Shown here: positions 32,193 to 64,000 of the stretch, piece after piece
How positions within the stretch are numbered: position 1 is the stretch's first letter
Layout of the letters: the number at the start of each line of letters is the position of its first letter
NCBI GenBank assembly: GCA_964561135.1
Contig: CAZLOB010000038.1
Span: 6,427-70,426 of the forward strand
From: an uncultured Elusimicrobia bacterium
GTDB lineage: Bacteria; Elusimicrobiota; Endomicrobiia; DTEH01
Direction of reading: 5' to 3'
Length of the DNA: 64,000 bases
Translations under genes and position numbers: made by a program
Notes under the pieces: generated by a model
Database searches by the model: none
Seen by the model: the letters and a program-made list of their open reading frames with translations, nothing else
What the model was told of the DNA's origin: nothing

Positions 32193-35100
32193 TTATTTTT
32201 TAATAACAACTTGTTTTTTAGTAACAACATATTTCTTTCCTGACATTTCTTCAACTATAATTTTGCAAACATATACACCACTACCAACTTTTTGTTTTGC
32301 TTGGTTATCACATAACCATTCATATTGTTTATTTTCACCAGCAGAAGGATCAAGTTCTTCTTCTTTTACAAGTTCACCTAAAATGTTATAAATTCTTAAA
32401 GTAACTTTTTTTGCTGGATTTAATAATGAATATCTTAAAGTCACTTTACCAATTGAAGATGGATTAGGAAAAGTATACACACTATCTTTAAAAACTTCCT
32501 CTGCTGTAATAATATTTATGAAAAATTTCGATATATAAGTTGGCGAGGTGTTACCTGCGTTATCAACCAATGTTATATTTATTCTATATTCTCCATTAAT
32601 ATTCTGCTCGGGAAATGATAACAAAATAAGATAAGTAGTTGCGCTAATCTGTGTTAGTGATTTTATTGTTGAAACTTCTTTACCATCGGGACGATAAAGT
32701 CTAACATTTTGTGCTGAAAGATTTACTCCTGAACCACCTGTTTCTGTAAAAATTATTTGAATAGAACTAACTGCAACAGTAAATTTAGCGCCATCTTGTG
32801 GCCAAACAGATATAACTATTGGTGATGAAGTATCAGTTGCATATAGCTCTTGTAATTTCTTAAAGTTCACAGTAACAGAGGAAACAAGTGTGAGATCAAA
32901 ATCTATAACTTTTGCAAAAAAAGTCCTTGTTCCAGGTATGTTGCCAGTGTATACTGCTTTCACTTGACCATTAACATCTGTATAACTTGATAAAATAATA
33001 AACATATCATCTTGTGGTTTACTATCAACATATATTAAAACTTGTTTTTGTCCGATAGAAGGTATAGATGAAGAAATGATATTTCCGTATTGATCTTTAA
33101 GTGTCACCGTTATAATCACAGAACTTCCTATTAAAACATCATACGCAGTTGATTCTATTGTTGAGACAGTAGGTGACGGTTTCCCAGCAATAAGATCACT
33201 ACCTGGTAAAAACATAACAGCTGCTGTCGATAAAATTGTTTGGTTATCTGTTATATTATAAGCAGTGATAAATTTTAATTCTGCTTTTGTAGATGACAAC
33301 GTAGCAAAAGTTTGTCCTAAACTATTTGTTTTATCCTGTGGTTGAATAATTATATTCTGGGAACCAGTTACTGAAATTGACGCATCTTTATTAGCAACGG
33401 GTTGATTTGCAACATCTTTTAATGTTATAACAACATTTATTGTTGAACCAACAACAGCTTCATAATATTTTGTATAACTATCAATAATAGTCACACTTGA
33501 GAAAAATACACTTACTGCCCTTGTTATCCAAAACGTTTGTGATGCAGATTGTAATCCAGGATAAAAAACTGTAATGTTTTGTACGCCTGCTTCATTATCT
33601 CTGTATCTAAAACGCGCTTCTCCTAACACCATATTTACAGAATTACCTATCTCTACATTCGCTGTTGAACTTATAAAAGCATAATCTGAAGATGTTGTCT
33701 CTAAATAAACAATTCCTTCAATATCAACATCTTTATTTCCTTTTTCATCCTGTGCTTGGACAATAATTATTTGTGATGAAGACCCAGTAAGCAATTCCTG
33801 CCCAGCAGTAATAAATACAAGTTTTGTTGCAATAATATTATCAACTTGGAAACTCCCTGTTTGAACTGTTAAACCTACACCGTCTTCATCTTCAGGTGTA
33901 ATACGTATAGCTGTGGACACATCTTTATTGGGAAGGTCTTTTGTTGAATCCCAAATGAATGTATGTTCTTCACCTGATAAAGAAGCAAGTAAGTTTTCTG
34001 TTGGTTCTGAAGCGATCCATCTTGTAGCTGGTTTCCAATTACCATCTGTATCACGAAATTCTACTTTTATTTTACAATAATTATACGGCTCAGGTTTATC
34101 ATCTTCATCTATCAACCAATACTTTATTGTTACCAACCCTGTTTGTTCAGTAGATGGTGTTTCAATGACAACTTTTGGTGGTGTCCCTCTTACAACAAAT
34201 GTCTTAATTTCTGTGGCTTGTCCTGACGCTTCGTTTATTGATAAAACTACTGGTAAAGAAGTAGAATATATGTTATATGAATACGTTGCAATAGTTATAC
34301 TATATGGATTTTCAGCATAGAACCTATATTTTATTCTACCACCACTCCTACCAATACTACCAAACGGATAATTTATATTACTTAACACAAAATGGTATAT
34401 CTCACCATTAGTATAATCGCCATCATTACCCACACCTACTTTAAGTTGCATACCAAATTGTTCTGTTGTTTGGAATATAAGGTCATCGTTCAAATCAACC
34501 CATACTTGGACAGTAGTCGGCGGGTTACCATTACTTGCTAACCCAAGGTCAAAATATTTCACCTGAAATTCAACAGAACCAAATCTATCTATATAATTTG
34601 GTTCAACACCATCATCTACAAAACCACTAAAACCGCTATATACAATAGTAGGATCCCAATAAATTATGCTGTTAACCAAATCATCAGGTAAAAATGGTCT
34701 TGTATAATCTCTAAATGTTAAAACAGAATTTTTTGCACGAACATTAAAACATGCAGAAATTGTTGCTGTGTTTGTGTCAAGAACAATATTATCAAAAGTA
34801 TGTATGATATTGTTTGCAGTAATAAATGTAGTATATGTGGTAGCGGGTTGCAAGTTAGCAATATAAATTTTGTTTGTATTATTGAGTGGTGAACTATTAA
34901 ATGTGAGACCATTTGAATTTAAGAAAGTGAAACTTGTATATTCAATTTTAGTAATAGTTCCACCTAATGATAGTCCGTAATAAAAAAATTCTGTTCCAGA
35001 AACTATGTCATAACTTTTATCTTCAGCAAGTTTTCGCGTTACAATAGTAGGGGCTGCAGGATGACCAACAAATTCTATTGTTGCACCATCTTTGTTTTCA

Positions 35101-37475
35101 AAACATGCCCCAATATAATTGGGGTCTGAAAAATCGCATAAGTTAACTATTTTTTGTACATTTTTATCTTTTGATTCCGCGATTGTTACAAAAACATACT
35201 GTTCTCCTGGTGATATAGGTGATGCTCTATGTGTTAACCTAAACTTAACTTCTCCATTATCACTTATATAATCCTCATCATGAGTTAACAACCTTGACTG
35301 TACACCTGATTTTGTTCCATAAACTTGCCATTTATCTCCATCAGGTCCGTAACCATAACTTACAATCCATACTTCTGATTTTGTTGTAGAACTTGTTGTA
35401 ACAGATGTTATATCATTTGTCCCACCAGGGCCATCAACACCACCATCGTCGTAACGTAACATTGGTGTGTCATAAGAAAACAGTATAGTATTCCACCCAT
35501 GTGATTTTGTTTCATAAAGTTGATCTAAATAATTAAATTTTAACATATTTGAGGTATGCCAAGCATGAGCCGCTTGCGGCATTGAAAATTGTCCCCAGAT
35601 TCTTGTAAGACCCGGAATTCTATCATGATTTTGACTTATAACCCAAGAATTTTCTTTTGTAAATTCTTGTTTATATGGTGTATTGGCAAATTCTGTTGCA
35701 GAACCTAAGAAACAATTTTTCAACCATATTTGTGAAACATATCCTGTATTTTCTTCACCTTCTATATAAATATCACCACATTTGTTATCACTATAGTATT
35801 CATCAACACATAAATTGTCTATTGATGAATGTGACGCAAAACCATAACCTACATCATAACCAACATCGCCAGCATTACCAGTAGACACGTTCATCACAAA
35901 AATATTACCGTCAGAACCATATCTTACACGTATACCACCAACCTTGTTTGACCAACACTTGTTTGCACCTACATAGTTATATTTTGAACTTGACTCCAAA
36001 GCAATACCATACACACGATTGTTAAAACATTCATTGTTTATAATTACATTTTTGTTTGACCTAATTAGCGAAATACCTTCTTCTGCAAGTTGGTTATATA
36101 CTTTGTTTGAAGCAACTAAGTTTTTGTTAGAATCTTCAAAATATATCCCACGGATTTTGTTGTTATAAATCTCGTTGTATGAAATTTCGTTTTCAGAAGA
36201 ATTATCAAATCTTATCCCATATCCAACATTGCCACCTATATTTGAATAAATTTTGTTATTTCTTATATCTGACTTTTCTGTATTTTTAAACCACACACCA
36301 GCACGAACACAACTTCTTATTATATTTGATACTATCCCTTGAGAATACCACCAACGATTTATTCTTTTACAATTCTTAAACAATATCCCTGTATCAGGTG
36401 AAGAAGAAATGTCACAATTATAAAATTTTATATAATCTTTTGTACCATCAATAGGAGCACCAACACCAATGAAAACTATCCCATACAATTCATATCCTTC
36501 TGGTGTCGTTGTATCCCACAATCCTGTATGATGAACAACCACATTTTCCATTCTCATACCTACAGATGTTTCTTTATTTCGCTTCAAAGTTAAAATATAA
36601 TCAGCACTAATACTTATTGTCCTTTTAACAAATTCAGGATCAGGTTTGTCATGATTTGCCGGATTAGGATCGATTCCTACAATTTCCATATACCCTAAAT
36701 TTGTAGCGGCACCTAAATACAAATCTAATGTTGTATTGATAATTGGATTATAGAAATATATGTTTTTATTATTTTCTATTTCTTCAAAAATAAAACTACC
36801 CGGCGTGTTTATTAAAAGCATACCGTTGTTTATTAGCTTACCAGAACCATATACAGAAAAATTTACAATTGTAGATGAAACTACCTTAAATATACAATCT
36901 TTATCTATAGTAAGATTTAAAGTGTTAATAACAACATTTGAGTTTAAAGAATTACTACCAAAAACAACTTCAAACTTTGACCCATTATACTCATTTTTTG
37001 CAAGTTCTATATCTGAAAAGATGTTGATATCTACCCTTACATCTGATGTATCTATATTGATTACAAAATCGTTATTTTCTACCAACTTAAGCTTTTGGCA
37101 GGAAAGGTAGAACTTATCGTTTTCATTAGATGAATTTATTATTATTTGAGCAGCATTCCCACAATATATATCACCACTTATTGTTAAAGTGCTTCCTGTA
37201 ACACCATCAGAAACAAATCTTAATGTAGCATATTTATCTAAAGTTAATGATGCTGCAGAACATATTGCAGTAGTATCAATTATAATTATAAATCCTTGTG
37301 AAATTACAACATCATCACCTACTGTAGGAATAGTCCCGCTATCCCAAGTATTAGGTGAATTCCATAAAAGTGGTACTCCAGCTGTTCCCGTAGAAGTTAT
37401 AACTGCTGTATACCCTATTGAAGAAAATAATATGTAAAAAAGTAAAAAAGATATGAATAACTTTGTTTCTTTCAC
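32193..37475 (-). CDS. Giant (1760 aa) cell-surface protein: right-handed beta-helix (PbH1) repeats plus multiple Ig-like domains plus T9SS C-terminal sorting domain
   Basis: Signal peptide MKETKLFISFLLFYILFSSIGYTAV. Beta-helix repeats (NNKIYSNIGGNVGYGIRFDNSSENEISYNEIYNNKIRGIYFEDSNKNLVASNKVYN...). C-terminal CTD (KVTLRIYNILGELVKEEELDPSAGENKQYEWLCDNQAKQKVGSGVYVCKIIVEE...). Confidence 0.7.
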   Translation of the reverse strand: MKETKLFISFLLFYILFSSIGYTAVITSTGTAGVPLLWNSPNTWDSGTIPTVGDDVVISQGFIIIIDTTAICSAASLTLDKYATLRFVSDGVTGSTLTISGDIYCGNAAQIIINSSNENDKFYLSCQKLKLVENNDFVINIDTSDVRVDINIFSDIELAKNEYNGSKFEVVFGSNSLNSNVVINTLNLTIDKDCIFKVVSSTIVNFSVYGSGKLINNGMLLINTPGSFIFEEIENNKNIYFYNPIINTTLDLYLGAATNLGYMEIVGIDPNPANHDKPDPEFVKRTISISADYILTLKRNKETSVGMRMENVVVHHTGLWDTTTPEGYELYGIVFIGVGAPIDGTKDYIKFYNCDISSSPDTGILFKNCKRINRWWYSQGIVSNIIRSCVRAGVWFKNTEKSDIRNNKIYSNIGGNVGYGIRFDNSSENEISYNEIYNNKIRGIYFEDSNKNLVASNKVYNQLAEEGISLIRSNKNVIINNECFNNRVYGIALESSSKYNYVGANKCWSNKVGGIRVRYGSDGNIFVMNVSTGNAGDVGYDVGYGFASHSSIDNLCVDEYYSDNKCGDIYIEGEENTGYVSQIWLKNCFLGSATEFANTPYKQEFTKENSWVISQNHDRIPGLTRIWGQFSMPQAAHAWHTSNMLKFNYLDQLYETKSHGWNTILFSYDTPMLRYDDGGVDGPGGTNDITSVTTSSTTKSEVWIVSYGYGPDGDKWQVYGTKSGVQSRLLTHDEDYISDNGEVKFRLTHRASPISPGEQYVFVTIAESKDKNVQKIVNLCDFSDPNYIGACFENKDGATIEFVGHPAAPTIVTRKLAEDKSYDIVSGTEFFYYGLSLGGTITKIEYTSFTFLNSNGLTFNSSPLNNTNKIYIANLQPATTYTTFITANNIIHTFDNIVLDTNTATISACFNVRAKNSVLTFRDYTRPFLPDDLVNSIIYWDPTIVYSGFSGFVDDGVEPNYIDRFGSVEFQVKYFDLGLASNGNPPTTVQVWVDLNDDLIFQTTEQFGMQLKVGVGNDGDYTNGEIYHFVLSNINYPFGSIGRSGGRIKYRFYAENPYSITIATYSYNIYSTSLPVVLSINEASGQATEIKTFVVRGTPPKVVIETPSTEQTGLVTIKYWLIDEDDKPEPYNYCKIKVEFRDTDGNWKPATRWIASEPTENLLASLSGEEHTFIWDSTKDLPNKDVSTAIRITPEDEDGVGLTVQTGSFQVDNIIATKLVFITAGQELLTGSSSQIIIVQAQDEKGNKDVDIEGIVYLETTSSDYAFISSTANVEIGNSVNMVLGEARFRYRDNEAGVQNITVFYPGLQSASQTFWITRAVSVFFSSVTIIDSYTKYYEAVVGSTINVVITLKDVANQPVANKDASISVTGSQNIIIQPQDKTNSLGQTFATLSSTKAELKFITAYNITDNQTILSTAAVMFLPGSDLIAGKPSPTVSTIESTAYDVLIGSSVIITVTLKDQYGNIISSSIPSIGQKQVLIYVDSKPQDDMFIILSSYTDVNGQVKAVYTGNIPGTRTFFAKVIDFDLTLVSSVTVNFKKLQELYATDTSSPIVISVWPQDGAKFTVAVSSIQIIFTETGGSGVNLSAQNVRLYRPDGKEVSTIKSLTQISATTYLILLSFPEQNINGEYRINITLVDNAGNTSPTYISKFFINIITAEEVFKDSVYTFPNPSSIGKVTLRYSLLNPAKKVTLRIYNILGELVKEEELDPSAGENKQYEWLCDNQAKQKVGSGVYVCKIIVEEMSGKKYVVTKKQVVIKK

Positions 37476-37577: not shown

Positions 37578-37817
37578 TTATTTTTTACCTTTTTTCCCTT
37601 TACGTGCCATTTTTGCTCTTGATATATCACCATTTTTATCTATAAAATAAAGATAACCATCTTCTTTTTTTACACCAACTTTTGCTACTTTTTGTGGTTT
37701 ACCAGCTTTTTTTCTACCGCGAGCCATCTTCACTCTTGATACATCACCATCTTTATCCACATAGTACAAATATCCTTCTTCTTTTTTTACACCAACTTTT
37801 GCTACTTTTTCCGCCAT
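37578..37817 (-). CDS. Small basic protein consisting of two tandem ~37-aa repeats (unknown family; possible nucleic-acid-binding)
   Basis: MAEKVAKVGVKKEEGYLYYVDKDGDVSRVKMARGRKKAGKPQ | KVAKVGVKKEDGYLYFIDKNGDISRAKMARKGKKGKK. The duplication is also visible at the nucleotide level (shared ccatcttctttttttacaccaacttttgctactttttg). Lys-rich tails. Confidence 0.5.
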   Translation of the reverse strand: MAEKVAKVGVKKEEGYLYYVDKDGDVSRVKMARGRKKAGKPQKVAKVGVKKEDGYLYFIDKNGDISRAKMARKGKKGKK

Positions 37818-59099: not shown

Positions 59100-60161
59100 A
59101 TGAAATTTATTATCCGAATTATTTTTATATCAATCTTATCTTTAATACTTTCTGCAGAAGAACTATATTACCCCACATATATTACAGGCAGTGGTGTACC
59201 TATAAATGAATACACTTTATTTGCAAACAGTGGTTGGGATGGTAACTGGTATGTTGGGTCTAATATGTGTTGGATAAAAAAGTTTGATAAAACTTTACTT
59301 CCTGATAAAAAATTTTTTTCAAGATTTTTTATTGGTGCAAAACTTGGCAGAGCTAAGACAAAATCAAAACCTGCTTCACCACCATGGGAAAAAGATTATA
59401 TTGATGGTAACATTTATGTAGGTGTATCTTCAACACCAGCCTGGCGTGCAGATCAACGATATTTTTTATGTAAAGTATCAGATATACCTACTGAAGGTGA
59501 CTGGGAAAATGCAATTACAACAACTGGTGAGGCAAGATGGTTTTATACAGAAATTCCTATTGAAAAAGTTGATTTTGAAAAAGACATTTGGGTTTGTATT
59601 TATTCAAATACAGAATATTTAAACTCAGCCTCATCTTCACCTATACTTGCAGGTGCTTGGCGTGAACGTCCTCAAAGAAATTTTAATGTTTGGCTAAACA
59701 ACGAAATTCACTGTGCACCACCTATAGATCCTTCAACTTCACTGAAGACAGAAATACGTGCATTTGACCCTGCAATAATTATAAAACTTGTTCCTTTAGG
59801 TGCTGAGAATCTTCCTGTGAATATACAAGTTGTAAGTATTCAAGATGGTAGGCAACAAGATGATGAAAAAATTTTTTATGTAACATCATTAACACCCAAC
59901 ATTGAACGTATGTATATGGAAATTTCACAGGATAACATAGAGTATAAAAAAATTTCCAAATATTTGTATTCACAACCATATGTATTCAACTTATCAATTT
60001 CAATGATACCACCGGAGATTTCCGGCGATTTTTATATTAGGTTTGCTGCAGAAGATATTTTTGAAAATAAAGGGACTACACAAGAAATAAAACTCTCTAT
60101 CACAAGAGAAAAAGAAGAAATAATACAACAACCTGAAGGAAAAAAGAAGAAAAAGAAATAA
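59100..60161 (+). CDS. Secreted hypothetical protein (353 aa) with poly-Lys C-terminus
   Basis: Signal peptide MKFIIRIIFISILSLILSA; no recognizable catalytic motif; ends ...QQPEGKKKKKK. Confidence 0.35.
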   Translation: MKFIIRIIFISILSLILSAEELYYPTYITGSGVPINEYTLFANSGWDGNWYVGSNMCWIKKFDKTLLPDKKFFSRFFIGAKLGRAKTKSKPASPPWEKDYIDGNIYVGVSSTPAWRADQRYFLCKVSDIPTEGDWENAITTTGEARWFYTEIPIEKVDFEKDIWVCIYSNTEYLNSASSSPILAGAWRERPQRNFNVWLNNEIHCAPPIDPSTSLKTEIRAFDPAIIIKLVPLGAENLPVNIQVVSIQDGRQQDDEKIFYVTSLTPNIERMYMEISQDNIEYKKISKYLYSQPYVFNLSISMIPPEISGDFYIRFAAEDIFENKGTTQEIKLSITREKEEIIQQPEGKKKKKK

Positions 60162-60162
60162 G

Positions 60163-60900
60163 TTGCTGATTAAAAAAAACTTTTCAAAACTAATGATACC
60201 ATTAAAAGATAATATTCCATCATATAGAAAACCTTTTGTAAACTATCTTATAATTATAGCAAATACTTTAGTTTTTATCTACCAATATTTTTTACTTCCT
60301 TCAAAACATGAGATTCAACAATTAGTATATAATTACGGCTTTATCCCTTATAGGTTTATAACAGAATTTAATAATTCATGGTATACATTATTTTCTTGTA
60401 TGTTTCTCCATGGTGGATTTTTACATTTTTTAGGCAACATGTGGTTTTTATACATTTTCGGTGACAATGTTGAAGATATATACGGTCATATTAAGTTTCT
60501 ATTAATTTATATCATATGCGGTATTTCAGCAACGTTTGTTCAATTCATTTTCTCACCAACATCTACAATACCTATTATAGGTGCCTCAGGCGCTATCTCC
60601 GGTGTTTTAGGTTCATACTTTATATTCTTTCCTACAGCAGGTGTGTTAACTTTGATACCTTTTGGTATTTTTTCACGAATTGTGGTTTTACCAGCAGTGA
60701 TATTTTTAGGTTTTTGGTTCATATTTCAACTATTTAGTGGTACACAAACTTATGCATTACAAGTTGTTACAGGCAGAGACATTGGAGGCGTTGCATATTG
60801 GGCACATATAGGTGGGTTTATTGCAGGACTTTCTATTGCAATGTTTACTAAAAAGAAAAGAAAAATAAGAAGAATTAAAACTTATTGGTACTACTTATGA
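60163..60900 (+). CDS. Rhomboid-family intramembrane serine protease
   Basis: Catalytic GxSG (IGASGAISGVLGSYF) and a downstream His (AHIGGFIAG); six predicted TMs. Confidence 0.75.
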   Translation: MLIKKNFSKLMIPLKDNIPSYRKPFVNYLIIIANTLVFIYQYFLLPSKHEIQQLVYNYGFIPYRFITEFNNSWYTLFSCMFLHGGFLHFLGNMWFLYIFGDNVEDIYGHIKFLLIYIICGISATFVQFIFSPTSTIPIIGASGAISGVLGSYFIFFPTAGVLTLIPFGIFSRIVVLPAVIFLGFWFIFQLFSGTQTYALQVVTGRDIGGVAYWAHIGGFIAGLSIAMFTKKKRKIRRIKTYWYYL

Positions 60901-61247
60901 TACAACATTATGAATTTGGAAAAATAATAGTTAACAACAAAATCTATACCTCAGATATAATCATTTGTAAAGAAGAAGTTTTACCAAACTGGTTAAGAAA
61001 AGAAGGGCATCAACTTTGCTTAGACGATATAAAAGATGTGCTTAATAAAGCTAAACCAAAACTTTTGGTGATTGGCTGTGGGGCAAATTCTGTAATGTCT
61101 GTTTTAGAAGAAGTTAAAACATACTGTGCACAAAACAAAATTGAATTATATATATTAAATTCATACGATGCTGTGAATTTATACAACAAATTTGTCCAAG
61201 AAAATAAACATAAAGAATGTGTTTTTTGTTGCCACCTTACATGTTAG
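60885..61247 (+). CDS. Mth938-like (DUF498) domain protein
   Basis: MIQHYEFGKIIVNNKIYTSDIII...PKLLVIGCGANSVMSVLEEV...IELYILNSYDAVNLYN matches the Mth938-like fold signature. Confidence 0.45.
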   Translation: MVLLMIQHYEFGKIIVNNKIYTSDIIICKEEVLPNWLRKEGHQLCLDDIKDVLNKAKPKLLVIGCGANSVMSVLEEVKTYCAQNKIELYILNSYDAVNLYNKFVQENKHKECVFCCHLTC

Positions 61248-61255
61248 GTATGTTT

Positions 61256-61729
61256 TTACAACAGTAAACTAATCTCCAGCTTTGGCAGTGGAAGTTTTAC
61301 GAACTCAATTTTTGCTTCTTCAAACAACGGTTTAAAACTATCATCAGTATAATCTGTCGCAGTAACAAACCGTTTGATCTTTGCGTTAACAATCATTTTC
61401 GCACAAATGATACATGGTGAATGTGTACAATACATTGTTGAATCAGTAATATCTACACCATGTATTGCAGCTTGAATAATAGCGTTTTGTTCAGCATGTA
61501 CAGCACGACAAAGTTCGTGTCTTTGTCCTGAAGGAATACCAAGTTGTTCTCTTAAACAACCGAGTTCTAAACAATCTTTGGTACCAGATGGTGCACCGTT
61601 ATATCCTGTTGCCAATATTCTTTTATCTCTTACAATAACAGCACCAACATGATGCCTTTTACAAGTAGACCGTTCTGCAACTAGAAACGCTAATTTTAAA
61701 AAATATTCATCCCAAGAAATTCTTTGCAT
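61256..61729 (-). CDS. dCMP deaminase (ComEB-like cytidine/deoxycytidylate deaminase)
   Basis: Zinc motifs HAEQNAI and PCIICAKMI; 157 aa. Confidence 0.8.
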
Positions 61730-62311
61730 TTATGATTTTGAGTCAGAAAAAGAATTAAAAATTTTTAACAAAATCTTATCAATTTTTTTATATAAAGCAG
61801 AAATTGAGGAGTTGTTAAAAACAAAAAAATCAGCGTGTTTTTTACATAGATGTATTTGTTGTTGAGTTTTTTTGTTAGAACATTCTTTTTTTTCTATTTC
61901 TAAAAATTCTTTATAAGTTTTAGGATCGCCTTCACGAGCACGTTTTTTTAAAAATTTAAACCTTATTTTTTTTGGTGCAGTGATATATAAAAGAAAGAAT
62001 CTATCCTTAAATTTTTTCTTAAATTCTTTTATCTCACCCACAGTCCGTATGCTATCAACAACAATTTTGTCACAACTTTTTATTTTTTTTAAAAGTCGTT
62101 TAGCTAAATATCCACTACCATACTGTGCTCTTAGTTTATTACCAAGTAATATTAAATTTTCGCGTGAAAGAACAATATTTCTTTTAGAGGCTATTTCTCG
62201 TAATATGTCTGATAAAGAAAATACTGTAAAACCTTTCTTATTTAAATATTTACATACTTCTCCTTTACCAGCAGCATTAGGTCCACTAAGTCCTATCACT
62301 AATCTACTCAT
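61730..62311 (-). CDS. P-loop nucleoside-monophosphate-kinase-like protein
   Basis: GLSGPNAAGKGEV (GxxGxGKG P-loop as in adenylate/cytidylate kinases). Adjacent to dCMP deaminase, separated by 0 nt. Confidence 0.4.
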   Translation of the reverse strand: MSRLVIGLSGPNAAGKGEVCKYLNKKGFTVFSLSDILREIASKRNIVLSRENLILLGNKLRAQYGSGYLAKRLLKKIKSCDKIVVDSIRTVGEIKEFKKKFKDRFFLLYITAPKKIRFKFLKKRAREGDPKTYKEFLEIEKKECSNKKTQQQIHLCKKHADFFVFNNSSISALYKKIDKILLKIFNSFSDSKS

Positions 62312-62493
62312 TACATAAGATCTTCTGCACCTAAAGTTTTCTTTTTCCCCTCAGACTTAACTTTTTCAACAGCGTTTTTTACCATTTCTTCAACTTTTTT
62401 AGACAACGCTTCAATAAACCCTTCTGAAGTTCTCAATCCCTGCTCTTTTACCATCTTTTTTACTTTACTTACAACTACTAATACATCAGCCAT
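62311..62493 (-). CDS. 60-aa histone-fold protein (archaeal HMf-like; alpha3-truncated bacterial histone candidate)
   Basis: MADVLVVVSKVKKMVKEQGLRTSEGFIEALSKKVEEMVKNAVEKVKSEGKKKTLGAEDLM. Compare archaeal HMfB ...ERVSDDARITLAKILEEMGRDIASEAIKLARHAGRKTIKAEDIELAV. Shared R-x-S, EEM, G-(R/K)-K-T and AED(I/L) at the same spacing. The protein ends right after AEDLM. Confidence 0.5.
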   Translation of the reverse strand: MADVLVVVSKVKKMVKEQGLRTSEGFIEALSKKVEEMVKNAVEKVKSEGKKKTLGAEDLM

Positions 62494-62534
62494 AAATTTA
62501 TCCTCCTTTTAAGCAACAAATTTTATTATTTGAT

Positions 62535-63572
62535 TTATTTAAAGAAATGTTTCATGAACTGGATCCATTGAGATGAAACTGTCTTAAGTTGTCCAGTAGC
62601 TTCTTCTAACGGTACAGGAACAACTTCGTTACCTTTTAATGCCACCATATACCCAAACTTCCCTTCTAAAACAAGTTCTACTGCTTTTACTCCAACCCTT
62701 AGTCCTAATATACGGTCAAAAAGTGTTGGTGCACCACCGCGTTGGATATGCCCTATAACAGCAACTCTTGTTTCAATACCAGTATTTTTTTCAATAATAT
62801 CAGCAACTTGTTCTCCAATACCACGTTTTTTAAGTATCATATGGCCAAATTCATCAAGTTCTTCTTTTTCTGTTTTTAACCCAGGCAAAATAACACCTTC
62901 GGAAACAATCACTAAAGCAGTCTTTTTACGTTCATAAACTTTCTTTAGATGTTCACACATTTTTTCTATATTAACTTCTTCCTCAGGGATTAAGATCCAG
63001 TCAGCTGCTGATGCGATCCCTGTAAACAAAGCGACCCAACCTGCATGCCTCCCCATGACTTCTAATACCATAATCCTTCTATGTGATCTTCCAGTATCAA
63101 GAAGACGTTCTGCTGCGTCAACTGCAACAGTTACTGCTGTATCAAACCCAAATGTATAATCAGTTACACCAAGATCGTTATCCATTGTTTTAGGTACACC
63201 AACAACAGGAAAATTTTTTTCTTTATAAAGTTTTGTTGCAACACCAAGTGTATCTTCTCCGCCCATTGCAATAACAGCATCAAGTTGTAATTTTTTTAAT
63301 GTTTCAACACATTTTTCTGTCCCATTCTCTTTTTTATACGGATTTGTTCTTGAAGTACCGATAATTGTACCACCTTTGTTTATAATATACTCAACATCCT
63401 GTAATGTCAACGGAACACTTTTAGCTTCTAACATCCCCTTCCATCCATCTAAAATACCAACACATTCAATACCTTCTGACAAAGCTCTATAAACTACACC
63501 TCTTATTGCAGGGTTTAACCCAGGACAATCCCCACCACCTGTGAGTATACCAATTTTTTTTATTTTGTTCAT
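62535..63572 (-). CDS. 6-phosphofructokinase (PfkA family; residues suggest the PPi-dependent type)
   Basis: GILTGGGDCPGLNPAIRGVV; MGGEDT; PKTMDNDL (Lys in the TIDND block, Glu/Asp in the GGDG position, as in PPi-PFKs). Confidence 0.8.
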   Translation of the reverse strand: MNKIKKIGILTGGGDCPGLNPAIRGVVYRALSEGIECVGILDGWKGMLEAKSVPLTLQDVEYIINKGGTIIGTSRTNPYKKENGTEKCVETLKKLQLDAVIAMGGEDTLGVATKLYKEKNFPVVGVPKTMDNDLGVTDYTFGFDTAVTVAVDAAERLLDTGRSHRRIMVLEVMGRHAGWVALFTGIASAADWILIPEEEVNIEKMCEHLKKVYERKKTALVIVSEGVILPGLKTEKEELDEFGHMILKKRGIGEQVADIIEKNTGIETRVAVIGHIQRGGAPTLFDRILGLRVGVKAVELVLEGKFGYMVALKGNEVVPVPLEEATGQLKTVSSQWIQFMKHFFK

Positions 63573-63603
63573 AGTTGTTACTCCTCTTTTATTTAAAAAT
63601 TAC

Positions 63604-64000
63604 TTATGGTACTTCAATAGTGTTCAAAATTTGCTTTATTATATCTTCAGTTGTGATTTCTTCAGCCTCAGCTTCGTATGAAAGAATAATCCTATGTCTT
63701 AATACATCATAAGCAACTGATTTTATATCATCAGGTATAACATAACCCCTATGGTTTAAAAAAGCATAACATTTTGATGATAAAACTAAATATATTGATG
63801 CACGTGGTGAAGCTCCATACATTATAAAAGGTTTAATATCAGCGAGATTATAATCTTGTGGATTCCTTGTTGCATCAACAATGTTCAAAATATAATCTTT
63901 TAATTTCTCATCTATATAAATTTCGTCAATTATTTTTCTTACTCTTAAAATTTCTGCCGGTGAAATTATTGGTCTAACACTATTAAATTTTTCCTCTAAA
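63604..64000 (-). CDS. MoxR-like AAA+ ATPase, C-terminal part. Partial; the 5' end lies beyond the window.
   Basis: The minus-strand frame is open to the window edge (…LEEKFNSVRPIISPAEILRVRKIIDEIYIDEKLKDYILNIVDATRNP...YGASPRASIYLV...RGYVIPDDIKSVAYDVLRHRI), which is the MoxR lid-domain signature. The ORF track's 94-aa version starts at an internal TTG. Confidence 0.6.
   Translation of the reverse strand, partial: LEEKFNSVRPIISPAEILRVRKIIDEIYIDEKLKDYILNIVDATRNPQDYNLADIKPFIMYGASPRASIYLVLSSKCYAFLNHRGYVIPDDIKSVAYDVLRHRIILSYEAEAEEITTEDIIKQILNTIEVP

What the first reader, a model, noticed from the sequence alone, without database searches (positions are those of the whole stretch)
62311..62493. Candidate bacterial histone: 60-aa histone-fold ORF with truncated alpha3
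The translated ORF aligns position by position with archaeal HMf-type histones. It has an alpha1-like VVVSKVKKMVKEQG, an L1 RTS (the R-x-S/T pair), an alpha2 containing EEM, and an L2/alpha3 junction GKKKTLGAEDL that reproduces the conserved GRKT-I-x-AEDI arginine/threonine and aspartate clamp. The protein stops 2 aa into alpha3, and alpha2 looks ~3 aa shorter than HMfB. Recent structural-bioinformatic work described bacterial histone-fold singlets and an alpha3-truncated class, but they are functionally almost uncharacterized. The gene is translationally coupled to a nucleotide kinase-like gene and a dCMP deaminase, which is an odd context for a chromatin protein.
Basis: partly seen in the sequence, partly recalled or inferred. 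Interest (0 to 1): 0.85.

Follow-up and report, generated by a model that had tools for sequence, protein, structure and literature searches.

The report
HBb-type bacterial histone in Elusimicrobiota
This 60-residue gene really does encode a miniature bacterial histone, but it belongs to a family (relatives of the Bdellovibrio histone HBb) that the literature already reports in this phylum, so it is a solid but expected member, not a discovery.

Summary
The ORF at 62311-62493 (minus strand, 60 aa) is a real gene under strong purifying selection (dN/dS about 0.05-0.1). It has a strong AGGAGG ribosome-binding site. It is 48% identical over its full length to HBb/Bd0055, the crystallised Bdellovibrio histone (PDB-wide phmmer E = 7e-10). 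An AlphaFold2 model (pLDDT 81.6) shows helix 2-17, helix 24-48 and a one-turn helix 56-59. Its best structural matches are HBb, the Leptospira histone HLp and the archaeal histone HTkC (TM 0.73-0.79).

The window comes from an Endomicrobiia/Elusimicrobiota bacterium. More than 100 orthologues of 59-60 aa exist, almost all from that phylum. Three papers (Hocher 2023, Hu 2024, Schwab 2024) already list Elusimicrobiota among the carriers of "bacterial dimer" alpha3-truncated histones.

The subclade has its own quirks. Lys replaces the "RD-clamp" Arg, loop L2 has one extra residue, Glu stands where HBb has its DNA-contacting R57, and the chain ends one or two residues after the clamp Asp.

The overlap with a kinase gene and a dCMP-deaminase gene occurs only in close relatives and is not a family feature. 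The likely function is an abundant, sequence-nonspecific DNA-bending or DNA-coating nucleoid protein. That function and the oligomeric state are inferred, not shown.

The parts
62311..62493 (-). Histone gene: 60 codons plus a TAA stop at 62311-62313
   Evidence: The ORF is listed. It is 48% identical to HBb and matches HBb in the PDB at E = 7e-10. dN/dS is 0.05-0.1. The identical protein occurs on 18 metagenome contigs.
62502..62507 (-). Shine-Dalgarno AGGAGG, 8 nt upstream of the ATG
   Evidence: Read from the sequence. The predicted anti-SD duplex is -11.6 kcal/mol, the 4th strongest of 58 ORFs in the window (median -1.3). A GGAGG-type site at the same spacing precedes the orthologues in 12 other loci.
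62443..62490 (-). Alpha1, residues 2-17. Contains S9, K10, K12 and K16, which are invariant in the family.
   Evidence: AF2 secondary structure gives H2-17. Invariance across 121 sequences is shown. HBb residues S9, K10, K12 and K16 contact the DNA backbone (Hu 2024).
62425..62442 (-). Loop L1, residues 18-23 (QGLRTS), with invariant R21
   Evidence: AF2 model. hhalign places R21-T22-S23 on R19-V20-S21 of HMfB. R21 is present in 121 of 121 members.
62350..62424 (-). Alpha2, residues 24-48 (25 residues). This is the long central helix and the presumed dimer handshake. L30, V34 and M37 are hydrophobic.
   Evidence: AF2 model. There is a 4-residue gap relative to HMfB alpha2. HBb dimer-core residues L31, I35 and L38 correspond to conserved hydrophobic positions L30, V34 and M37.
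62329..62349 (-). Loop L2, residues 49-55 (GKKKTLG). K51 stands in place of the clamp Arg. K52-T53 are DNA-contact residues. There is one extra residue relative to HBb.
   Evidence: Alignments. Family counts: K51 118/121, K52 120/121, T53, L54 and G55 121/121.
62314..62328 (-). Alpha3 stub, residues 56-59 (AEDL), plus a variable last residue M60. D58 is the clamp aspartate.
   Evidence: AF2 gives H56-59. D58 is present in 121 of 121 members. 55 of 121 members end at D+1 and 63 of 121 end at D+2, and the last residue is variable.
62309..62316 (-). ATGTAATG junction: the histone stop overlaps the kinase start by one base
   Evidence: Sequence. The junction is present in the window and in the identical contigs L001-L006. 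L008 reads ATGTGATG at the junction. L039 and L042 have an AT-rich spacer of about 95 nt instead.
61730..62311 (-). Context gene: P-loop nucleotide-kinase-like protein (193 aa)
   Evidence: Pfam AAA_17 and AAA_18. NCBIfam PRK08356 scores 84.6 bits, below its cut-off. It also matches the N-terminal half of NF041025 and of PADLOC dCTPase.
61256..61729 (-). Context gene: dCMP/cytidine deaminase (157 aa)
   Evidence: Pfam dCMP_cyt_deam_1, E = 1.5e-28. The best NCBIfam match is ComEB-type dCMP deaminase at 135 bits, below its cut-off.

Best explanation
The gene encodes a 6.6-kDa, mildly basic (pI about 9.3) member of the HBb-like "bacterial dimer" branch of alpha3-truncated histones, in an Endomicrobiia (Elusimicrobiota) bacterium.

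**Shown here**
- It is a real, strongly conserved coding gene with a strong ribosome-binding site.
- It is homologous over its full length to HBb.
- Its predicted fold is a histone fold with a short alpha2 and a one-turn alpha3.

**Inferred from HBb (48% identity, crystal structures)**
- Two chains pair antiparallel through alpha2. The hydrophobic core would be V11, L30, V34, M37 and L59.
- The dimer binds the DNA sugar-phosphate backbone without sequence specificity, across minor grooves.
- Contacts come from the paired L1-L2 loops (R21-T22-S23 with K51-K52-T53) and from the first turn of alpha1 (S9, K10, K12, K16).
- It lacks the long alpha3 and the His49-equivalent residue of archaeal HMf histones. 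It therefore cannot build the four-helix-bundle tetramers that make hypernucleosomes.
- It most likely acts as an abundant nucleoid-associated protein that bends DNA (HU/IHF-like, the Hu 2024 model) or coats it (the Hocher 2023 model).

The overlap with the kinase and deaminase genes is a local operon arrangement, not a functional partnership.
For: **Real gene**
- dN/dS is 0.045-0.11 against relatives.
- All 121 homologues compared share the reading frame; 115 are 59-60 aa, and 4 of the 6 longer ones differ only by an N-terminal extension.
- The AGGAGG site ranks 4th of 58 ORFs in the window and is conserved in orthologues.

**Family**
- phmmer against the PDB gives HBb (8fvx, 8cmp) at 7e-10 and HTkC and HLp at 1e-4.
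- BLASTP shows 48% identity to HBb.
- A profile search finds 613 representative clusters, 55 of them at E <= 1e-10.

**Fold**
- The AF2 model has pLDDT 81.6 with helices H2-17, H24-48 and H56-59.
- The Foldseek top eight hits are HBb, HLp and HTkC (TM 0.73-0.79, probability 1.00). Eukaryotic histones, TAFs and NF-Y follow.

**Functional residues**
- 7 of the 10 main DNA-contact residues of HBb are retained and (near-)invariant: S9, K10, K12, K16, S24 (here S23), K52 and T53.
- The dimer-core positions stay hydrophobic.

**Taxonomy and literature**
- About 65 of 70 genome loci are labelled Elusimicrobia, Elusimicrobiota or Endomicrobia.
- Elusimicrobiota are named as carriers of this histone class.
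Against: - There is no direct evidence of DNA binding, abundance or oligomeric state for this protein or for any Elusimicrobiota orthologue.
- The clamp Arg is Lys. HBb's DNA-contacting R57 is Glu (invariant in the family) and T8 is Val. DNA affinity or binding geometry may therefore differ from HBb.
- K44 is near-invariant at the position of the tetramerisation Arg of FtF histones, and the chain ends at D+1/D+2 as FtF histones do. A higher oligomer is not excluded.
- Pfam CBFD_NFYB_HMF is below threshold.
- No promoter or terminator consensus flanks the gene. Transcription level is unknown.
- The dimer could not be modelled with the tools available.
Confidence: 0.8

Rival explanations
1. It is an FtF-like (face-to-face) tetrameric histone that wraps about 60 bp of DNA, like Leptospira HLp or archaeal HTkC, and not a simple HBb-like dimer.
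For: - There is significant similarity to HLp and HTkC (E = 1e-4; TM 0.76 and 0.73).
- K44 is near-invariant (118/121) at the position of the tetramerisation Arg (HLp R49, HTkC R45).
- The chain ends at D+1 or D+2, as in FtF histones, whose C-terminal carboxylate is part of the dimer-dimer contact.
- E48 matches the Glu of HTkC at the "N52" position.
Against: - It is much closer to HBb (E = 7e-10 and 48% identity, against 31-38% for HLp and HTkC).
- The FtF residues N53 and R55 of HLp are E48 and K51 here.
- The last residue and the chain length (59 or 60 aa) vary within an otherwise highly conserved C-terminus. That argues against a precisely positioned carboxylate contact.
- Schwab et al. 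placed Elusimicrobiota sequences among the "bacterial dimers", for which AlphaFold gave no confident oligomer larger than a dimer.
Confidence: 0.13
2. It is a histone-fold adaptor that works with the downstream kinase and dCMP deaminase (for example as a regulatory or scaffolding subunit of a nucleotide-metabolism or dCTP-depleting defence module), and is not a chromatin protein.
For: - The one-base stop/start overlap with the kinase and the direct abutment of the deaminase imply co-translation in this organism.
- The trio is kept in L008, L039 and L042.
- The kinase and the deaminase resemble the two halves of the anti-phage dCTP deaminase (PADLOC dCTPase E = 3e-24 and 3e-31; NF041025).
- Histone folds do serve as protein-protein modules in TAFs and NF-Y (general knowledge).
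Against: - The linkage is absent from 66 of 70 genome loci. 24 of these instead have a Methyltransf_28 gene and nuoA/nuoB downstream.
- In L039 and L042 a spacer of about 95 nt replaces the overlap.
- The histone is far more conserved than its context.
- The residues conserved in the family are HBb's DNA-contact residues.
- The histone has no PADLOC hit.
Confidence: 0.04
3. It is a spurious or non-expressed short ORF.
For: It is only 60 codons long. No sigma-70-like promoter lies in the 41-nt spacer. Pfam is sub-threshold.
Against: - dN/dS is 0.05-0.1 with saturated synonymous change.
- 277 homologues keep the same length.
- The strong SD is conserved.
- The fold prediction is confident.
- There is homology to crystallised proteins.
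Confidence: 0.01

Closest known systems
HBb / Bd0055 of Bdellovibrio bacteriovorus ("bacterial dimer" alpha3 histone; PDB 8FVX, 8FW7, 8CMP, 9EZZ, 9F0E)
   Same: - Homology runs over the full length, at 48% identity.
- The N-terminus is the same: MA(D/E)VLVV.SKVKK.
- Both have the S9-K10 motif, a short alpha2, a one-turn alpha3, the K-T pair in L2, the clamp Asp and hydrophobic dimer-core positions.
- The predicted fold superposes at TM 0.77-0.79 and about 2 A rmsd.
   Different: - The clamp Arg R51 is Lys here.
- L2 has one extra residue (GKKKT against GRKT), and L1 has one residue fewer.
- HBb N22 is an invariant Arg (R21) here. HBb R57 is Glu. HBb T8 is Val.
- The chain ends 4 residues earlier (…EDLM against …RDIVIDHL).
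- There are no experimental data for this clade.
FtF (face-to-face) alpha3 histones: HLp of Leptospira perolatii (9QT0-2) and HTkC of Thermococcus kodakarensis (9F2C)
   Same: - They share the alpha3-truncated fold (TM 0.73-0.76).
- The C-terminus lies at D+1/D+2.
- A basic residue sits at the R49(HLp) position.
- The R-x-S L1 motif is shared with HTkC.
   Different: - Similarity is lower (E = 1e-4; 31-38% identity).
[quoted passage not shown]
- The FtF proteins are tetramers that wrap DNA. The oligomeric state here is unknown.
Archaeal nucleosomal histones (HMfB type; Pfam CBFD_NFYB_HMF)
   Same: - It has the helix-loop-helix-loop-helix histone fold.
- L1 R-x-S aligns with HMfB R19-V20-S21.
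- It has a K-T....D L2/alpha3 motif.
- The EEM segment in alpha2 aligns.
   Different: - Alpha2 is 4 residues shorter, and alpha3 is 4 residues long against about 10.
- There is no His49-equivalent and no four-helix-bundle surface.
- The Pfam score is below the gathering threshold.
HU/IHF family nucleoid proteins (functional analogue only)
   Same: These are small, basic, abundant dimers that bend DNA non-specifically via minor-groove and backbone contacts. This is the behaviour Hu et al. 2024 report for HBb.
   Different: The fold is unrelated. Whether the genome also encodes HU is unknown.

Membership tests
alpha3-truncated histones (Schwab et al. 2024) | Alpha3 helix reduced to 3-4 residues | tested here: met
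   AF2 secondary structure gives H56-59, and the chain ends at residue 60. 118 of 121 family members end 1 or 2 residues after D58.
alpha3-truncated histones (Schwab et al. 2024) | Alpha2 helix 4-5 residues shorter than in nucleosomal histones | tested here: met
   hhalign against HMfB places a 4-residue gap in alpha2. The AF2 alpha2 spans residues 24-48, 25 residues.
alpha3-truncated histones (Schwab et al. 2024) | RxTxxxxD motif (L2 Arg and alpha3 Asp clamp, DNA-binding Thr). This is a shared feature, not the definition. | tested here: inconclusive
   T53 and D58 are invariant and the spacing is correct, but the Arg is Lys in 118 of 121 members.
Bacterial dimer histones (HBb-like) | Sequence clustering with HBb/Bd0055. 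The category was defined by sequence, not by structure. | tested here: met
   HBb is the best PDB hit, at E = 7e-10 against 1e-4 for FtF proteins. Identity is 48% over the full length.
Bacterial dimer histones (HBb-like) | Bacterial origin, in one of the listed phyla | tested here: met
   Named homologues and about 65 of 70 genome loci are Elusimicrobia, Elusimicrobiota or Endomicrobia. The phylum is listed.
Bacterial dimer histones (HBb-like) | Homodimer only, with no confident higher oligomer | not testable with these tools
A natural doublet relative (P0145) folded without an alignment gave pLDDT 45.5, which is uninformative.
Bacterial dimer histones (HBb-like) | Non-specific DNA binding and high cellular abundance | not testable with these tools
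   Only indirect evidence exists: 7 of 10 HBb DNA-contact residues are conserved, and the strong SD is conserved.
Histone fold (structural class) | Helix-loop-long helix-loop-helix topology matching solved histones | tested here: met
   All top-50 Foldseek PDB hits are histone-fold chains. The top 8 are prokaryotic alpha3 histones at probability 1.00.
Pfam PF00808 CBFD_NFYB_HMF | Score at or above the gathering threshold (21.4 bits) | tested here: not met
   The score is 16.2 bits, E = 0.013. 17 of 49 family members hit the model at E <= 0.1, with a best E of 0.0033. The model is insensitive to this branch.
Pfam PF09123 DUF1931 (pseudodimeric histones) | Match to the model; two fused histone folds | tested here: not met
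   None of the 49 members hit at E <= 0.1. The protein has a single fold of 60 aa.
FtF (face-to-face) histones | Conserved tetramerisation residues (logo R48, N52, R54 = HLp R49, N53, R55) | tested here: not met
   The equivalent residues are K44, E48 and K51. K44 and K51 are conservative replacements, so a variant interface is not excluded.
Archaeal nucleosomal (HMf) histones | Alpha3 of about 10 residues and a His49 four-helix-bundle tetramer interface | tested here: not met
   Alpha3 has 4 residues. The His49-equivalent position is S47, and in the family it is A, S, Q or T.
Anti-phage dCTP deaminase (NF041025 / PADLOC dCTPase), for the two downstream genes | Single polypeptide with a kinase-like N-domain fused to a deaminase, scoring above the curated cut-off | tested here: not met
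   There are two separate genes. NF041025 scores are 55.5 and 77.9 bits against a cut-off of 400. The PADLOC hits cover only partial model ranges.

The most novel reading that the evidence does not exclude
The Elusimicrobiota "KKT-type" histones may form a distinct subclass that is the phylum's main chromatin protein and engages DNA or self-associates differently from both HBb (dimer, bending or coating) and HLp (tetramer, wrapping). One possibility is a dimer-dimer contact built from K44, E48, K51, E57 and the C-terminus.

The features that define the subclass are:
- Lys in place of the clamp Arg.
- A one-residue L2 insertion.
- An invariant L1 Arg.
- An invariant Glu where HBb has its DNA-contacting R57.
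- A chain that ends 1-2 residues after the clamp Asp.
- A near-invariant Lys at the FtF tetramerisation position.
Probability: 0.2. Interest if true: 0.55.

Novelty: new member of a known kind. Interest (0 to 1): 0.3.

Why it matters
Bacterial histones were established only in 2023-2025, and just two have been studied experimentally (HBb and HLp, with some in-vivo data on the L. interrogans histone). They use different DNA-binding modes. Elusimicrobiota are the largest uncultured reservoir of the HBb-like branch, yet public databases call this protein "hypothetical" or mislabel it "N-methylhydantoinase B". A correct annotation is therefore useful in its own right. The clade's invariant substitutions at the clamp and at one DNA-contact position make it a reasonable third test case for how alpha3 histones bind DNA. 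The finding does not open a new question, because the family, its fold and its presence in this phylum are already published.

Tried and rejected
1. **Pfam, NCBIfam, PADLOC.** For the histone itself, Pfam gave only sub-threshold CBFD_NFYB_HMF and a spurious Hydantoinase_B hit, which explains the JGI mislabel. NCBIfam and PADLOC gave nothing.\n2. A natural doublet relative, P0145, folded without an alignment gave pLDDT 45.5 and no usable model.\n3. **Promoter and terminator scan of 60800-64000.** Hits were no more frequent than in shuffled sequence, and none lay in the 41-nt spacer upstream of the gene. The transcription unit is unresolved.\n4. **Kinase/deaminase linkage as a functional clue.** Rejected as family-wide, because it occurs only in near relatives.\n5. 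**\"Retained sprocket arginine\" as a special feature of this clade.** Rejected, because an Arg at that L1 position occurs in 64 of 90 related alpha3 singlet representatives. HBb's Asn is the minority state.\n6. **HU/IHF search.** tblastn in the window and the fetched loci found nothing. Only 64 kb of the genome is available, so this says nothing about the genome as a whole.\n7. **Rfam and tRNA scans.** They found only two tRNAs, far from the locus.
Full report
**1. The observation.** The minus strand of the window carries an ATG-initiated ORF at 62311-62493. It encodes MADVLVVVSKVKKMVKEQGLRTSEGFIEALSKKVEEMVKNAVEKVKSEGKKKTLGAEDLM, 60 aa. No competing ORF of 30 aa or more overlaps it apart from its neighbours' ends. 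Its TAA stop shares one base with the ATG of the next gene: the minus strand at 62316-62309 reads ATGTAATG. That next gene is a 193-aa P-loop kinase-like protein (Pfam AAA_17 and AAA_18). Its stop abuts the ATG of a 157-aa dCMP/cytidine deaminase. A phosphofructokinase gene lies 41 nt upstream.

**2. It is a real gene.** The identical protein is encoded on 18 metagenome contigs with the same neighbours. It is present in NCBI, JGI, ENA and Logan data. A word-indexed search returned 277 homologues, and 114 of the 120 listed are 59 or 60 aa. Against orthologues in L008, L039, L010 and L076, nonsynonymous divergence is 0.05-0.24, while synonymous sites are at or beyond saturation. Where dN/dS can be computed it is 0.045-0.11.

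An AGGAGG Shine-Dalgarno sequence sits at 62502-62507, 8 nt before the ATG. Its predicted pairing with the anti-SD is -11.6 kcal/mol, the fourth strongest of 58 ORFs in a window whose median is -1.3. A GGAGG-type site at the same spacing precedes the orthologue in all twelve other loci inspected. The "spurious ORF" alternative is therefore excluded.

**3. What it is.**

*Sequence.* Pfam alone is unconvincing. CBFD_NFYB_HMF scores 16.2 bits against a threshold of 21.4, DUF1931 is not hit, and a meaningless Hydantoinase_B hit scores about the same. That last hit explains why JGI labels the protein "N-methylhydantoinase B".

A sequence search of the PDB is decisive. The best hits are the Bdellovibrio bacteriovorus histone HBb/Bd0055 (8FVX, 8FW7, 8CMP, 9EZZ, 9F0E) at E = 7e-10 over residues 1-58. 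They are followed by the archaeal face-to-face (FtF) histone HTkC (9F2C) and the Leptospira perolatii histone HLp (9QT0-2) at 1e-4. BLASTP gives 48% identity and 72% similarity to HBb over the full length.

*Structure.* An AlphaFold2 model built on a 49-sequence alignment has mean pLDDT 81.6. It shows helices 2-17, 24-48 and 56-59. Foldseek against the PDB returns HBb (TM 0.77-0.79, about 2 A rmsd), HLp (0.76) and HTkC (0.73) as the top eight hits at probability 1.00. Eukaryotic core histones, TAFs and NF-Y subunits follow.

*Comparison with HMfB.* hhalign against HMfB (sequence from memory, P19267) aligns residues 11-60 with HMfB 8-61 at 33% identity. It places a 4-residue gap in alpha2, puts R21-T22-S23 on HMfB R19-V20-S21, and puts KKT....D on RKT....D. 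These are the defining traits of the "alpha3-truncated" histones of Schwab et al. 2024: an alpha3 of 3-4 residues and an alpha2 that is 4-5 residues shorter.

**4. Whose it is.** Named homologues come from Endomicrobia/Endomicrobiia and other Elusimicrobiota MAGs. A scan of one genome per GTDB species returned 70 confirmed loci. About 65 are labelled Elusimicrobia, Elusimicrobiota or Endomicrobia, including Candidatus Endomicrobium trichonymphae. The strays are an Ignavibacteria bin, a Nitrospiraceae bin and a Bdellovibrionota bin. A profile search of 1.84 billion representatives found 613 clusters at E <= 1e-3. These include natural doublets of 118-134 aa.

**5. What is already known.**
- Hocher et al. 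2023 showed that Bd0055 is abundant, nucleoid-localised and probably essential. [quoted passage not shown]
- Hu et al. 2024 solved further HBb-DNA structures. [quoted passage not shown] - Schwab et al. 2024 placed these proteins in the "bacterial dimer" category of alpha3 histones, found [quoted passage not shown].
- Hu et al. 2025 showed that the related FtF histone HLp is a tetramer that wraps about 60 bp.
- A literature search found no paper devoted to an Elusimicrobiota histone.

The family, the fold and its occurrence in this phylum are therefore published. This clade has not been studied experimentally.

**6. Anatomy against HBb.**

Retained and (near-)invariant in 121 family members:
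- S9, K10, K12 and K16 (alpha1 DNA contacts).
- S23 (= HBb S24), K52 and T53 (L1/L2 contacts).
- D58 (clamp Asp).
- The hydrophobic dimer-core positions V11, L30, V34, M37 and L59 (= HBb V11, L31, I35, L38, I59).

Different, and fixed in the clade:
- The clamp Arg (HBb R51) is Lys in 118 of 121 members.
- L2 carries one extra residue (GKKKT against GRKT), and L1 has one fewer.
- HBb's top DNA contact N22 is an invariant Arg (R21).
- HBb's DNA-contacting R57 is Glu in 120 of 121 members.
- T8 is Val.
- The chain stops one residue (55 of 121) or two residues (63 of 121) after D58, and the last residue is variable. HBb continues for six residues after the Asp.

Among 90 related singlet representatives, the K-clamp occurs in 13 and the L2 insertion in about 15. 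These two traits mark the Elusimicrobiota subclade. The L1 Arg is common (64 of 90) and is not special.

**7. Dimer or something larger?** FtF tetramers use an Arg four turns back in alpha2 (HLp R49), an Asn (N53), the clamp Arg (R55) and the C-terminal residue at D+1. The equivalent residues here are K44 (118 of 121 members), E48 and K51, and the C-terminus is at D+1/D+2. That partial resemblance keeps an FtF-like or novel oligomer alive as a rival.

Three things argue for the dimer class:
- The similarity to HBb is much stronger.
- The Asn and both Arg residues are absent.
- The C-terminal length varies.
- Schwab et al. placed the phylum among proteins for which AlphaFold gave no confident oligomer beyond a dimer.

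I could not run multimer prediction.

**8. Context.** The histone-kinase-deaminase string is found only in the window's close relatives: L008 (92% identical histone), L039 (80%) and L042 (78%). In L039 and L042 an AT-rich spacer of about 95 nt replaces the overlap. PFK is upstream only in the window's own species.

In 24 other loci the gene about 30 nt downstream is a Methyltransf_28 (MidA/NDUFAF7-type) methyltransferase, followed by nuoA and nuoB. In 9 loci the downstream gene is a UbiE-like methyltransferase. In 10 loci a divergent LuxR-type response regulator lies upstream. The histone is thus far more conserved than any of its neighbourhoods, as expected for a stand-alone housekeeping gene that happens to sit in different operons.

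No sigma-70 consensus or intrinsic terminator flanks it in the window, so its transcription unit is unresolved.

**9. Mechanism (shown or inferred).**

*Shown:* a real, conserved, well-translated gene; HBb homology; the predicted alpha3-truncated histone fold; conservation of most HBb DNA-contact and dimer-core positions.

*Inferred:*
- An antiparallel alpha2 homodimer.
- A role as an abundant nucleoid protein that bends or coats DNA.
- Inability to form HMf-type hypernucleosomes, because there is no long alpha3 and no His49 equivalent.

*Unknown:* the oligomeric state, bending versus coating versus wrapping, abundance, and whether HU coexists in the genome.

**10. Verdict.** The finding is a new, uncharacterised member of a known and recently well-described family, in a phylum already reported to carry it. 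Interest is modest at 0.3. The most novel reading not excluded is that the KKT-type Elusimicrobiota clade has its own DNA-binding or oligomerisation mode (probability about 0.2).

Noticed in passing
window 61256-62311 (minus strand): The kinase-like gene and the dCMP-deaminase gene downstream of the histone match the N-terminal and C-terminal parts of the anti-phage dCTP deaminase. PADLOC dCTPase gives E = 3e-24 and 3e-31, and NCBIfam NF041025 gives 55.5 and 77.9 bits against a cut-off of 400. They look like a split version of that fusion. The deaminase's best match is housekeeping ComEB-type dCMP deaminase, and NDK is adjacent in relatives, so a pyrimidine-salvage role is at least as likely as defence.
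   Followed up: partly
L025 1352-3448 and 23 other Elusimicrobiota loci (e.g. L011-L038): In 24 of 70 genome loci the histone gene is followed, about 30 nt downstream on the same strand, by a Methyltransf_28 gene (PF02636, E = 3e-31). From memory, this Pfam family includes the MidA/NDUFAF7 protein arginine methyltransferases. nuoA and nuoB come next, both confirmed by Pfam. The methyltransferase probably belongs with complex I, but a recurrent histone/protein-methyltransferase adjacency may deserve a look.
   Followed up: partly
window 37578-37817 (minus strand): A 79-aa, very lysine/arginine-rich protein is made of two repeats of about 39 aa: KVAKVGVKKE(E/D)GYLY(Y/F)(V/I)DK(D/N)GD(V/I)SR(V/A)KMAR. 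Its Shine-Dalgarno site ties for second strongest in the window (-13.0 kcal/mol). It has no Pfam hit. Its only PDB similarity is to designed PQQ-like propeller blades (Cake proteins). It could be another abundant small basic protein.
   Followed up: partly
public annotation of the window protein (62311-62493): JGI/IMG names this 60-aa protein and several cluster members [quoted passage not shown]. NCBI calls its relatives "hypothetical protein". The JGI name traces to a chance sub-threshold Pfam Hydantoinase_B hit (E = 0.01).
   Followed up: yes
P0131, P0141, P0145, P0148, P0154 (118-134 aa); P0124 (279 aa): Natural tandem doublets of HBb-like alpha3 histone folds, and a 279-aa protein with an N-terminal extension plus two such folds, appear among the profile-search representatives. 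Their source organisms are not known from this tool.
   Followed up: no
window 32193-37475 (minus strand): A 1760-aa ORF has an N-terminal hydrophobic, signal-like segment. It is probably a large surface or secreted protein. It was read in the translation only and not scanned.
   Followed up: no
window 59100-60161 (plus strand): A 353-aa ORF has an N-terminal hydrophobic segment and a C-terminal run of lysines (…PEGKKKKKK). It has no Pfam family at E <= 0.001. It is conserved next to the rhomboid gene in the identical contigs.
   Followed up: no
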